The notes under the pieces were generated by a model. The model was not told where the DNA came from. It made no database searches and saw only the letters and a list, made by a program, of their open reading frames with translations. 64,000 nt of DNA from Halobacteria archaeon. GTDB lineage: Archaea > Methanobacteriota_B > Thermococci > Methanofastidiosales > NM3. Below, in pieces: positions 4,458 through 6,971 of this stretch (the first letter of the stretch is position 1; each line of letters starts with the position of its first letter). The stretch is from contig DAINBB010000004.1 in assembly GCA_036733165.1 (NCBI GenBank), positions 7,198 to 71,197 on the forward strand, read 5' to 3'. A program made the position numbers and the translations under genes.

Positions 4458-6971
4458 ATGGAACTCCCACCTGAAAAACTTGGTTCATTCTACATCGGAT
4501 CAGAATATGATATTGAAAGCGATAAGCTTCTTGGCATCCCCATAAACTATGACTCCAGGGACCTTACAACCCACGCCATCTGTTTCGGGATGACGGGAAG
4601 TGGAAAGACGGGCCTCTGCATAGGAATTCTGGAAGAAGCGGCCTTGGACAAGGTTCCGGCAATAATAATAGATCCCAAGGGGGACATCACCAATCTGCTG
4701 TTACAGTTCCCAGATCTCAAGAGCCAGGACTTCAGGCCCTGGGTAAATCCGGACGATGCCAGAAGAAAGGGAATGGACATCGATGAATACGCAGAATATA
4801 CATCAAAGACATGGGAAAACGGCCTAAGGGAGTGGGGAATAGATCGAAAAAGAATAAGGGACCTAGGCCTGAGCGTCGACTTTAGCATCTATACCCCGGG
4901 TTCCGATGCCGGCAGGCAGATAAGCATACTCGGCGGGCTTGCGCCTCCAGAGATAGATTTTCAAGAAAATATGGAGAACGTGAGGGAACAGATCAATGGA
5001 ACTGTGGCGGCATTGTTGGGCCTTATCGGTCTGGATGCAGACCCTCTAAGAAGCAAGGAGATGATATTGCTCACAAACATATTCGAGCATTACTGGAGCA
5101 AGGGGGAGGGTTTGGACATCGCCAGGCTGATAACTTCCATCCAGTCGCCGCCGTTCAAAAAGCTGGGAGTGTTCGACCTTGATACATATTATCCGGAGAA
5201 AGAAAGATTCGAACTGGCAATGGCATTGAACAGCCTAGTGGCATCCCCCAGCTTTGGGGAATGGTTGAGGGGGGAGGAACTCGATATAGGCAAGATGCTC
5301 TATGATGATAACGGCAAGCCTAGGCACACCATCTTCTATCTTGCCCACCTCACCGATGAGGAAAGGATGTTCTTTGTTACATTACTTCTGGAGAACATAT
5401 TGACATGGGCAAGGAAACAGAGCGGCACTACGAGCCTGAGAGCCTTGCTTTACTTTGATGAGATATATGGTTTCATGCCCCCTGTCGCCAAACCACCTTC
5501 AAAGGCGCCATTGATGACCCTTGTGAAGCAGGCCCGAGCCTTTGGACTGGGATTGATGATGGTAACGCAGAACCCAGTTGACATCGATTACAAGGGGCTT
5601 ACGAACATAGGCACATGGTTCATAGGGAAGCTTCAGGCCAAAAGGGATAAGGAAAAGGTGTTGGAGGGTCTTAAGGGGACATTGTCGCCAAAAGACATGG
5701 AAAGGGGCGTTGATTACGAGAATATCATTGACAGACTGAAGAGCAGGGTGTTCCTGATGCACAACGTCCATGAGGACGGACCGGTCATCTTCAACACCAG
5801 ATGGGTTATGAGCTATCTGAGGGGGCCGCTGACCAGGCCACAGCTTAAGAATCTCCTGAAGATGAATGGCAAGGAAGTAACGGTCCCGAAAGACGTGGAT
5901 GTGGCCACACCACCCGTTATCGAAAAATGGGATACCACATCCTCGCTCTCATCAAGGCCCTCACTTTCCCCGGACATAGACCAGATATTCCTGCCGATAA
6001 ATGTGGGACGGGGATCGGCAATGGATACGGTATATGAAAGTGTTGGACAGGATACGGACATCAAGGGCGTCTACATCCATTATGCACCACATATCCTGGG
6101 GGAGGCCCAAGTCCGTTTCTTTGACAAGAAGCGCGATATCGATGACCTTACAGAGGTCGCCATGATGATAGGGCCCGGGGAGAAGACGGATCTTGTGGAC
6201 TGGGGCAAGGCGGAAGAGCTCTCCATCGGTCCGGACAATATATTGAGCGAGCCAGAACTGCAGGCGGCTGGGGGTAATGTCCTCTATTCCAATGTGCCTG
6301 ACAGTGTCAACGACCCAAGGGAGATAAAAGGCTTGGAGAAGGAATTGTCCAATTGGCTGTACTACAATAAAAGATCGCTGATAAAGGAGCACAAAGGTCT
6401 TGAGATTTTCCAAAAACATGATGAATCCGAGAGGGACTTCCTGGTAAGGCTCCACCAGGCCGCCAGAGAAAGAAGAGACAAAGAGGTAGACAAGCTCAAG
6501 GATAGCTACGAGAAGAAGATTGACAAGCTGTCACAGAAACTTGATGATCTTGAGCTGGACCTAGAGTCAGACAAGGCAGAGTATGAGGCAAGGAAAAGGG
6601 AAGAGATGGTCGGCATGGGGGAGTCGGCACTTAGCTTCTTCATGGGCAGGAAAAGGACCAGCGGCATATCCACCATAGCCAGGAAGAGGAGGCTGACGGC
6701 CAAGGCCGGCCAGGATATAAAGGAAACCACCCAGGATATCGAACAGGTGAAGAATGACCTCTCCAAGTTAGAGTCGGAGCTTGAGACCGCCGTGAAGGAT
6801 ATCACTAAGAGATGGGAGAATGTCGAAGAGGATATCACAGACCTCGAGATCAGGCCAAGGAAGTCGGATGTGGACATCAGGATGATGGCCATTGCATGGA
6901 AACCTTACTGGAAGATGGAGTACGAGACCCGAAATGGAAGCGCCGTGACAGAAGTTGGAGCATATAAATAA
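4458..6971 (+). CDS. DUF853/YjgR-like HerA-FtsK superfamily P-loop NTPase with C-terminal coiled-coil extension
   Basis: Walker A 'GMTGSGKTG' followed by 'IIIDPKGD', Walker B '[10 protein letters not shown]'. '[26 protein letters not shown]' aligns with E. coli YjgR '[26 protein letters not shown]'. About 250 aa of C-terminal charged heptad-like sequence ('[37 protein letters not shown]'). Confidence 0.7.
   Translation: [837 protein letters not shown]

What the first reader, a model, noticed from the sequence alone, without database searches (positions are those of the whole stretch)
4458..6971. Orphan 837-aa DUF853/YjgR-like HerA-FtsK-superfamily ATPase with a ~250-aa C-terminal coiled-coil
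The N-terminal ~520 aa are collinear with the uncharacterised YjgR/DUF853 NTPases (Walker A 'GMTGSGKTG...IIIDPKGD', Walker B '[10 protein letters not shown]', '[26 protein letters not shown]'). The protein then continues into a long charged heptad-like region that standard DUF853 proteins lack. The family has no established function. HerA-like ATPases recur as core components of conflict systems, and here the gene stands alone between an ABC exporter pair and mscL. A perfect direct repeat (TAAGGATTAT x2, 26-bp spacing) sits in its leader. A DUF853 ATPase fused to a coiled-coil module in an archaeon is not something I can assign to a described system.
Basis: partly seen in the sequence, partly recalled or inferred. 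Interest (0 to 1): 0.5.

Follow-up and report, generated by a model that had tools for sequence, protein, structure and literature searches.

The report
Conserved ring ATPase with coiled-coil arm
This gene encodes a real but not unique protein: one member of a large, strongly conserved, uncharacterised family of HerA/FtsK-type motor ATPases, found in many bacteria and several archaea, that always carries a C-terminal module with a rigid two-helix arm; its function is unknown and it shows no sign of being a defence gene.

Summary
The 837-aa ORF, its Walker motifs, its neighbours and the leader repeat are all present as described. It is not an orphan. Full-length relatives (about 830-930 aa, 42-70% identical) occur in at least 594 species genomes from more than ten bacterial phyla and three archaeal lineages. 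The ATPase part (residues 1-470) is a HerA/FtsK-superfamily core and a distant, collinear relative of E. coli YjgR. It passes Pfam DUF87 but falls just below the DUF853 (PF05872) cut-off. The "250-aa coiled coil" is really a 340-aa module. A beta-rich domain with no significant Foldseek match among solved structures carries a 136-aa antiparallel two-helix hairpin. The hairpin has a fixed length and a conserved basic tip. Gene neighbourhoods vary, no defence partner recurs, and the long form was absent from the plasmid and phage collections. The only recurrent neighbour is a membrane-anchored PLD-type nuclease in Chloroflexota. ATPase-only relatives without the module sit on putative mobile elements. 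The best reading is a ring-forming, self-contained translocase whose arms capture a polyanion, probably nucleic acid; this mechanism is inferred. The leader repeat is not conserved and is weakly significant. Interest is moderate: a widespread uncharacterised architecture.

The parts
4458..6971 (+). Complete gene, 837 aa plus stop: a long-form YjgR-like HerA/FtsK-superfamily ATPase
   Evidence: ORF list and translation. The N-terminus aligns with those of 55 homologues. A 541-aa partial protein named Candidatus Methanofastidiosa archaeon is 100% identical.
4458..5867 (+). ATPase domain, residues 1-470: a RecA-like core with a large helical insertion (about 77-325) between the Walker A strand and Walker B, and no HAS-barrel
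   Evidence: AF2 model. Top Foldseek PDB matches are all HerA (9x1m, E 5e-12). Pfam DUF87 passes its cut-off. About 70-80% of columns are conserved across bacteria and archaea.
4587..4613 (+). Walker A / P-loop GMTGSGKTG (residues 44-52)
   Evidence: G44, T46, G47, S48, G49, K50, T51 and G52 are invariant in 56 sequences.
4662..4772 (+). IIIDPKGD strand (69-76) and the family signature DFxPWxNxDDARR (91-103)
   Evidence: Invariant D72, P73, K74, G75, D76, W95, N97, D99, D100, A101, R102 and R103. The DPKGD and W..NP elements are shared with E. coli YjgR.
5445..5510 (+). Walker B LLYFDE (330-335), followed by a conserved Pro/Lys-rich loop [11 protein letters not shown] (341-351). The loop is a candidate pore or substrate loop (inference).
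   Evidence: Y332, E335, P341, P342, P346, K349 and P351 are invariant. The loop has pLDDT below 50 despite its conservation.
5562..5651 (+). [26 protein letters not shown] and the following KRDK (369-398): sensor region and candidate arginine finger
   Evidence: Q371, N372, P373, D375, R396, D397 and K398 are invariant. This stretch gives the best sequence match to solved HerA (8wiv, E 7e-7).
5868..5957 (+). Variable, low-complexity linker (residues about 471-500)
   Evidence: pLDDT below 50 for 471-494. This is the main indel-rich region of the alignment.
5958..6419 (+). First part of the C-terminal beta-rich domain (about 501-654)
   Evidence: AF2 models. No significant Foldseek PDB match, with 0 hits at E <= 1e-3.
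6420..6827 (+). Antiparallel two-helix hairpin arm (about 655-790; helices 658-728 and 735-787), estimated at roughly 8-10 nm from helix lengths
6618..6710 (+). Arm tip [31 protein letters not shown] (721-751): a short hydrophobic stretch followed by a basic cluster
   Evidence: G721, G730, R731, R744 and R745 are conserved. Residues 717-751 carry net charge +7 in an otherwise acidic protein. pLDDT is about 55-69.
6828..6968 (+). Second part of the C-terminal beta-rich domain (791-837), closing the domain around the hairpin insertion
   Evidence: Strands 793-798, 805-824 and 827-834. P800, W814, P816, W818 and A835 are invariant; R801, R802 and D804 are nearly invariant.
4316..4457 (+). AT-rich (27% GC) leader and promoter region. 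It holds a TATA-like CTTATATTTTT (4383-4393), the direct repeat TAAGGATTAT (4402-4411 and 4428-4437) and the Shine-Dalgarno-like AAGGGGT (4443-4449).
   Evidence: The repeat is not conserved in relatives. No Rfam hit and no unusual fold. The promoter and SD assignments are readings of the sequence, not tests.

Best explanation
The gene encodes a soluble, self-contained motor ATPase. It belongs to a large, uncharacterised long-form subfamily of the YjgR-like branch of the HerA/FtsK superfamily.

Shown:
- The Walker A, Walker B and sensor motifs are intact and invariant, and the core has a HerA-like RecA fold.
- There is no HAS-barrel and no transmembrane segment.
- A C-terminal module is always present. 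It consists of a beta-rich domain with a fixed-length two-helix arm whose tip is conserved and basic.
- The gene is monocistronic, and no partner gene is conserved across the family.

Inferred:
- Like the solved members of the superfamily, it probably assembles into a ring (probably a hexamer) and uses ATP hydrolysis to move along or pump a polymer through its central channel.
- The conserved Pro/Lys loop after Walker B is the candidate channel loop.
- The C-terminal beta domains would form a collar. The six arms, estimated at 8-10 nm, would act as rigid spacers whose basic tips capture or anchor a polyanionic partner.
- That partner is most probably nucleic acid (DNA), less probably acidic membrane lipid.
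- The very high conservation across domains of life and the chromosomal, housekeeping-like settings suggest a conserved cellular substrate rather than an arms-race target.
For: Family and fold:
- Pfam DUF87 passes its cut-off.
- The top 50 Foldseek PDB matches are almost all HerA hexamer chains (the rest HerA-like, e.g. TdpAB), with the best E 5e-12.
- Profile search against PDB sequences gives HerA 8wiv at 6.7e-7.
- BLASTP blocks to E. coli YjgR are collinear.
- ATPase-only relatives at 33-44% identity pass PF05872.

Fixed architecture:
- 120 of 120 best homologues and 80 of 80 best genome loci match at essentially full length.
- A profile of the C-terminal module finds 794 clusters at E <= 1e-30, and in every full-length hit it sits at the C-terminus.

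Active-site integrity and conservation: invariant residues are listed.

Arm:
- AF2 models.
- Length 136 +/- 2 residues, conserved base and tip, tip net charge +7, no transmembrane segment.

Self-contained and chromosomal:
- Neighbourhoods vary.
- One distant plasmid hit and no phage hit.

Nucleic-acid lean:
- The solved structural relatives that matched (HerA-NurA and HerA-DNA complexes, TdpAB with DNA) are DNA-handling ATPases (for the structures; the wider generalisation rests on established knowledge of the superfamily).
- In Chloroflexota the gene sits next to, and often overlaps, a tandem PLD protein closest to the nucleases NucT and DrmC. This holds in 12 of 85 loci, in three arrangements and in at least three ATPase clades.
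Against: - No oligomer model, no biochemistry and no phenotype exist for any member.
- The substrate is not identified by any test here.
- The PLD neighbour is restricted to one phylum and has an N-terminal membrane anchor with the positive-inside pattern. This suggests an extracytoplasmic catalytic domain, so a direct partnership is unproven. No PLD gene lies in this window.
- The tip also carries a conserved hydrophobic stretch (LSFFMG), and several neighbours in different lineages are membrane proteins: MscL here; UPF0114, a PEMT-like methyltransferase and GDT1 elsewhere. That fits membrane binding equally well.
- The arginine-finger and pore-loop assignments are by position only.
Confidence: 0.45

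Rival explanations
1. It is a conflict or defence gene. A HerA-like sensor motor would act alone as a single-gene abortive-infection system, or with an unlinked or lineage-specific effector such as the PLD nuclease seen in Chloroflexota.
For: - HerA-type ATPases are cores of Sir2-HerA, DUF4297-HerA and related systems; these are among the structural matches.
- The distribution is patchy, with inter-domain transfers.
- The PLD neighbour scores against the DISARM DrmC models.
- ATPase-only relatives lie on putative mobile elements, one with an integrase nearby.
Against: - No effector or other defence gene recurs next to the long form among 135 immediate neighbours from about 80 loci.
- Nothing defence-like lies within about 5 kb in the window.
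- The mad8 and mad3 hits are generic P-loop matches that also hit a transporter ATPase.
- The long form was absent from the plasmid and phage collections.
- About 50% identity over 840 aa between archaea and bacteria, with near-invariant surfaces, is unlike fast-evolving defence genes.
- Lineage-coherent clades (Nitrospira, Chlorobi, Saprospiraceae) suggest long vertical residence.
- The PLD protein has a signal anchor.
Confidence: 0.12
2. It is a membrane-directed machine. The ring ATPase would dock on the cytoplasmic membrane through the hydrophobic and basic arm tips. It would then remodel the membrane or feed a polymer towards it, with the six hairpins possibly packing into a tube like the hairpins of membrane-fusion adaptor proteins.
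For: - The conserved tip combines LSFFMG with a K/R cluster.
- Membrane proteins recur as neighbours in separate lineages: MscL in the window, UPF0114 in Nitrospira, a PEMT/ICMT-like methyltransferase and a membrane-anchored PLD in Anaerolineales, and GDT1 in Chlorobi.
Against: - There is no transmembrane segment and no lipid-binding domain.
- None of the membrane neighbours is conserved beyond one lineage.
- No known member of the superfamily remodels membranes (established knowledge).
Confidence: 0.15
3. It is a protein or peptide translocase or unfoldase. The coiled-coil arms would recruit protein substrates to the ring, by analogy with the coiled coils of PAN/Mpa or the ClpB middle domain.
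For: The only support is the architectural analogy of a ring ATPase with projecting coiled coils. VirB4- and VirD4-type relatives in the superfamily handle protein or nucleoprotein substrates (established knowledge).
Against: - No protease, chaperone or secretion genes recur nearby.
- The basic tip suits a polyanion better than unfolded protein.
- The closest solved relatives act on DNA.
Confidence: 0.05

Closest known systems
E. coli YjgR / DUF853 (Pfam PF05872 HerA_C; PDB 11kk 'HerA like helicase YjgR')
   Same: - The Walker A motif lies near the N-terminus, with no HAS-barrel before it.
- Both have the DPKGD strand followed by a W/H..NP element.
- The two proteins align in two collinear blocks across the ATPase: 39-98 vs 25-94 and 255-467 vs 188-399.
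- Both are stand-alone genes with no described function.
   Different: - Identity is only 23-30%. The window protein scores 18.2 bits against a cut-off of 22 for PF05872. PDB sequence search gives E 0.016-0.023.
- YjgR is 500 aa and lacks the 340-aa beta-domain-plus-hairpin module.
HerA helicases: archaeal and bacterial HerA-NurA end-resection motors, and the HerA of Sir2-HerA and DUF4297-HerA defence complexes
   Same: - They give the best structural matches to residues 1-470: Foldseek E 5e-12 to 1e-7 and target-normalised TM-score 0.4-0.5.
- The Walker B and sensor region is shared.
   Different: - Identity is 12-16%.
- There is no N-terminal HAS-barrel, only a two-strand hairpin before Walker A.
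- No NurA, Sir2 or DUF4297 partner lies in the window or recurs among relatives.
- NCBIfam HerA equivalog scores are 13-16 bits against cut-offs of 800-970.
- HerA proteins lack this C-terminal module.
ATPase-only relatives (472-543 aa) on IMG/VR contigs
   Same: - They are 33-44% identical to residues about 27-468.
- They are closer to the window ATPase than YjgR is, and they pass the PF05872 cut-off.
   Different: - They lack the C-terminal module entirely; neither tblastn nor a profile search finds it.
- They sit in co-directional arrays of small ORFs, one with an integrase, so the context looks like a mobile element.
Type IV coupling proteins (TrwB/VirD4) and FtsK/SpoIIIE
   Same: They share the P-loop followed by a D.KGD strand. 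Pfam hits are weak: TrwB_AAD_bind at 18.8 bits against a cut-off of 20.5, and FtsK_SpoIIIE at 11.4 bits.
   Different: - There is no transmembrane anchor.
- No secretion or conjugation genes lie nearby.
- The plasmid collection held only one distant hit.
- All Pfam scores are below their cut-offs.
Ring ATPases and adaptors with projecting helical hairpins (dynein stalk, SMC/Rad50 arms, ClpB middle domain, HlyD/MacA hairpins)
   Different: This is an analogy only. There is no sequence relationship, the host domain differs (a beta-rich domain at the C-terminus of a RecA-type ATPase), and there is no hinge, zinc hook or globular tip domain.

Membership tests
HerA/FtsK superfamily of P-loop ATPases | Walker A and Walker B motifs in a RecA-like core whose closest structures are HerA, FtsK or VirB4-type rings | tested here: met
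   Motifs at residues 44-52 and 330-335 are invariant in the family. The top 50 Foldseek PDB hits are almost all HerA chains (the rest HerA-like, e.g. TdpAB), best E 5e-12.
Pfam PF01935 (DUF87, HerA central domain) | Score at or above the gathering cut-off of 23.2 bits | tested here: met
   27.6 bits, residues 27-81.
Pfam PF05872 (HerA_C, formerly DUF853; the YjgR family) | Score at or above the gathering cut-off of 22 bits | tested here: not met
   18.2 bits, and only residues 330-399 match. About one in ten close homologues carries a precomputed PF05872 hit. ATPase-only relatives pass with 28-39 bits.
YjgR-like clade (looser sense) | Collinear similarity to YjgR across the ATPase, and no HAS-barrel | tested here: inconclusive
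   BLASTP finds two ordered blocks at E 9e-6 and 1e-3. hhalign supports only the Walker A block, at probability 85.7%. The relationship is real but distant.
Canonical HerA (HerA-NurA) | N-terminal HAS-barrel domain | tested here: not met
   Only strands 10-18 and 23-32 precede Walker A in the model.
Canonical HerA (HerA-NurA) | Adjacent nurA (often with mre11 and rad50), and an NCBIfam HerA equivalog score above cut-off | tested here: not met
   The neighbours are an ABC pair, MscL, LysRS and others. HerA models score 13-16 bits against cut-offs of 800-970.
HerA-based defence systems (Sir2-HerA, DUF4297-HerA) | An effector gene (Sir2, DUF4297 or another nuclease) in an operon with the ATPase | tested here: not met
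   None lies in the window. None is among the top neighbour families in about 80 loci, apart from a PLD protein in one phylum.
MADS (mad1-8) defence system | Multi-gene operon with mad6, mad7 and mad8 mandatory (10.1101/2023.03.30.534895) | tested here: not met
   The gene is monocistronic. The mad8 model also hits the neighbouring ABC transporter ATPase at 6e-10, so the 4e-15 hit is generic.
Type IV coupling protein / FtsK | N-terminal membrane anchor and a secretion or division context | tested here: not met
   No hydrophobic segment; the maximum 19-residue Kyte-Doolittle mean is 1.56, at the P-loop. Pfam scores are below their cut-offs. One distant plasmid hit.
SMC/Rad50-like coiled-coil ATPases | ABC-type head split by a very long coiled coil that ends in a hinge or hook | tested here: not met
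   The head is RecA/HerA-type. The hairpin is 136 aa and is inserted in a C-terminal beta domain. The SMC NCBIfam score is 14 bits against a cut-off of 729.
Hexameric ring assembly (property of the superfamily) | Oligomerisation into a ring with a trans-acting arginine finger | not testable with these tools
   No multimer prediction was available. Conserved candidates (R396, R430, R448) are named by position only.

The most novel reading that the evidence does not exclude
The long-form family may be a new class of self-contained polymer-handling machine. A HerA/FtsK-type ring would carry six fixed-length coiled-coil arms that form a stalk or tube. This would couple the cytoplasmic motor to the membrane or to a distant nucleic-acid site. 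In Chloroflexota, where it is paired with a membrane-anchored NucT-like PLD nuclease, it could be a DNA uptake or export route unrelated to Com, Ced or type IV systems. The C-terminal beta domain would then be a new fold.
Probability: 0.15. Interest if true: 0.7.

Novelty: new variant of a known kind. Interest (0 to 1): 0.35.

Why it matters
HerA/FtsK-type rings drive chromosome segregation, DNA repair, conjugation, virus packaging and several phage-defence systems. Here one branch has kept a single, unusual architecture: the motor plus a beta domain bearing a rigid arm with a basic tip. It retains about 50% identity across bacteria and archaea and occurs in hundreds of species, many of them environmentally dominant (Nitrospira, Chlorobi, Anaerolineae, Bathyarchaeia). 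No function, structure or literature exists for it. Conservation this strong without a fixed partner gene points to a conserved cellular substrate. Identifying that substrate would add a new activity to a well-studied motor superfamily. For this window the practical result is narrower. The gene is an ordinary member of that family, not a unique archaeal invention, and it should not be annotated as a defence gene.

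Full report
**Observation.** The ORF at 4458-6971 (+) is real. It starts with ATG, ends with TAA and encodes 837 aa. The quoted motifs are at residues 44-52 (GMTGSGKTG), 69-76 (IIIDPKGD), 330-339 ([10 protein letters not shown]) and 369-394.

Upstream lie an ABC ATPase (2823-3527) and a UPF0014 permease (3524-4315). 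Downstream, on the minus strand and convergent, lies mscL (7110-7481). Further out are a PIN-ATPase-KH protein, a class I lysyl-tRNA synthetase, a metallo-beta-lactamase-fold protein and a PEPCK-like protein. The gene is separated from its neighbours by 142 and 138 bp and looks monocistronic.

The direct repeat TAAGGATTAT lies at 4402-4411 and 4428-4437. A partial nr protein named Candidatus Methanofastidiosa archaeon is 100% identical over 541 aa, so the window most likely comes from that lineage.

**Not an orphan.** A search of 5.8 billion proteins hit the 8,000-candidate ceiling. The best 120 hits are all 831-875 aa, apart from the 541-aa partial, and are 52-70% identical over 98-100% of the query. 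They come from archaea (Bathyarchaeota, Methanomicrobia, Thermoproteota) and from bacteria (Chloroflexi, a Eubacterium).

The best 80 all match at essentially full length. They span Chloroflexota, Chlorobi, Bacteroidota, Nitrospirota, Acidobacteriota, Gemmatimonadota, Planctomycetota, Verrucomicrobiota, WOR-3, KSB1, Fermentibacteria, Methanofastidiosia, Bathyarchaeia and Methanomassiliicoccaceae.

A profile of the C-terminal 343 residues alone finds 794 clusters (50% identity) at E <= 1e-30 and 2,058 at E <= 1e-10. Wherever the hit is a full-length protein, the module sits at the C-terminus of a protein of about 830-930 aa. The extension is therefore the fixed architecture of a large family.

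**The ATPase part.**
- Only Pfam DUF87 passes its cut-off (27.6 vs 23.2 bits).
- HerA_C (formerly DUF853) scores 18.2 vs 22, AAA_10 20.4 vs 27.5 and TrwB_AAD_bind 18.8 vs 20.5.
- No NCBIfam model comes near its cut-off.
- By sequence, the solved structures are remote: HerA 8wiv at 7e-7 with the family profile, and YjgR 11kk at 0.016.
- The AlphaFold2 model (pLDDT 78.7, pTM 0.69) shows a RecA-like core spanning residues 1-470. A large helical insertion lies between the Walker A strand and Walker B. Only a two-strand hairpin precedes the P-loop, so there is no HAS-barrel.
- The top 50 Foldseek PDB matches are almost all HerA chains (the rest HerA-like, e.g. TdpAB), with the best E 5e-12.
- A direct BLASTP against E. 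coli YjgR, fetched from MG1655, gives two ordered blocks: 39-98 vs 25-94 (30% identity) and 255-467 vs 188-399 (23% identity). The DPKGD and W..NP elements are shared. hhalign supports only the first block.
- Six IMG/VR contigs carry ATPase-only relatives of 472-543 aa. These are 33-44% identical to residues about 27-468, pass the PF05872 cut-off and lack the C-terminal module.

**The C-terminal part.** Both models (C-terminal-only model, pLDDT 87.7) agree on the layout:
1. A disordered, indel-rich linker (471-500).
2. A beta-rich domain built from residues about 501-654 and 791-837.
3. An antiparallel two-helix hairpin inserted into that domain (helices 658-728 and 735-787).

From the helix lengths I estimate the arm at 8-10 nm. 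The hairpin is 136 +/- 2 residues in 56 sequences. Its base (AARERRD) and its tip are more conserved than much of the shaft. The tip, GESxLxFFxGRRxT...KRRxTxKAK, has net charge +7 in an acidic protein that has no transmembrane segment.

**Context and evolution.** I took four neighbourhoods from long contigs and 80 GTDB loci. I clustered 1,040 ORFs all-against-all and scanned 135 immediate neighbours against Pfam and PADLOC.
- No neighbour is shared across the family.
- No integrase, transposase, restriction-modification, toxin-antitoxin or HerA-type effector theme appears.
- The apparent mad3, mad8 and mad2 hits come from ABC ATPases and methyltransferases. The same models hit the ordinary transporter ATPase at 2823-3527 in the window.
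- The long form was absent from the plasmid collection (one 26%-identical, ATPase-only hit in 72,556 records) and from the phage collection.

A neighbour-joining tree, without support values, shows lineage-coherent clades for Nitrospira, Chlorobi and Saprospiraceae. Archaeal sequences fall in three separate places. The window protein groups with Methanofastidiosia and Bathyarchaeota next to a Chloroflexi/Chlorobi clade. This implies several inter-domain transfers.

**One recurrent neighbour.** In 12 of 85 loci, all Chloroflexota, a protein with two PLD (HKD) domains lies next to the ATPase.
- It is often immediately upstream and overlapping.
- It also occurs in divergent (L001) and convergent (L077) arrangements.
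- The linked loci fall in at least three ATPase clades.
- The protein has an N-terminal membrane anchor.
- Its best NCBIfam matches, all below cut-off, are the nuclease NucT and DISARM DrmC rather than cardiolipin synthases.
- A PEMT/ICMT-like membrane methyltransferase follows the ATPase in five of these genomes.
- The window has no PLD gene.

This is a lead towards nucleic-acid handling near the membrane. It is not a property of the whole family.

**Mechanism.**
Shown:
- The active-site motifs are intact and invariant.
- The core is HerA-like.
- The module has a constant architecture, with a fixed-length arm and a conserved basic tip.
- The gene is chromosomal and self-contained.

Inferred from the superfamily:
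- The protein assembles into a ring.
- It moves a polymer through a central channel by ATP hydrolysis.
- The conserved but low-confidence loop [11 protein letters not shown] after Walker B is the candidate channel loop.
- The beta domains act as a collar.
- The arms act as rigid spacers that present basic tips to a polyanion.

I favour nucleic acid as that polyanion. The solved relatives that matched are DNA-handling ATPases, and the only recurrent neighbour is nuclease-like. Membrane docking is a serious rival, given the hydrophobic stretch in the tip and the membrane-protein neighbours. Defence is unlikely on present evidence, and a protein substrate less likely still.

**Leader repeat.** A perfect 10-bp repeat arises in 2-4% of shuffles of this 142-bp, 27%-GC region. 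A third exact copy lies at 63732. The repeat is missing upstream of the Methanofastidiosia relatives L004 and L065. No Rfam family matches, and the leader folds no better than shuffled sequence. It may be a local operator flanking the likely transcription start, which would lie downstream of the TATA-like CTTATATTTTT at 4383-4393. Nothing here supports that beyond position.

**Verdict.** The gene is an ordinary member of a widespread, uncharacterised long-form branch of YjgR-like HerA/FtsK ATPases. I found no literature on the family. It is best filed as a new variant of a known kind. Interest is moderate.

Noticed in passing
L043:6883-7953, L085:6865-7962, L001:5698-6957 (-), L077:10506-11777 (-) and eight further Chloroflexota loci: A membrane-anchored protein with two PLD (HKD) domains lies next to the long-form ATPase in 12 of 85 loci. 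Its closest models are the nuclease NucT and DISARM DrmC. It occurs in three gene arrangements and next to at least three ATPase clades. A PEMT/ICMT-like methyltransferase lies downstream in five loci.
   Followed up: partly
L087:5004-6419, L088:4803-6293, L092:4944-6572 (IMG/VR contigs): ATPase-only relatives of 472-543 aa are 33-44% identical to the window ATPase. They pass the PF05872 cut-off and lack the C-terminal module. They sit in arrays of small co-directional ORFs, and L092 has an integrase about 2 kb downstream. They may represent the mobile-element form of the motor.
   Followed up: partly
window 952-2814 (-): A 620-aa protein combines a PIN domain, a PilT/T2SSE-like ATPase and KH domains. 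It is divergent from the ABC pair.
   Followed up: no
window 2823-4315 (+): An ABC ATPase and a UPF0014 permease overlap by 4 bp (a FetAB-like pair by my reading). The ATPase scores 4.9e-32 against the PADLOC mad3 model and 6e-10 against mad8. These defence models therefore pick up ordinary transporter ATPases.
   Followed up: yes
window 56-553 (+): A 165-aa ORF has a sub-threshold DUF4145 match (20.3 vs 23.1 bits).
   Followed up: no
window 63732-63741: A third exact copy of the leader 10-mer TAAGGATTAT lies here. With one mismatch allowed there are 12 matches in the window against 5.5 expected; 2 of 100 shuffles reach 12.
   Followed up: no
window 7110-7481 (-): In the MscL homologue only residues 33-118 match the Pfam model. 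The called ORF therefore has about 30 extra N-terminal residues, or its true start lies further downstream.
   Followed up: no
Tree of 81 family members: Archaeal sequences fall in three separate places among bacterial clades. The second Methanofastidiosum sequence (L065) is only 45% identical to the window protein and groups with other lineages. This suggests repeated inter-domain transfer or replacement.
   Followed up: partly
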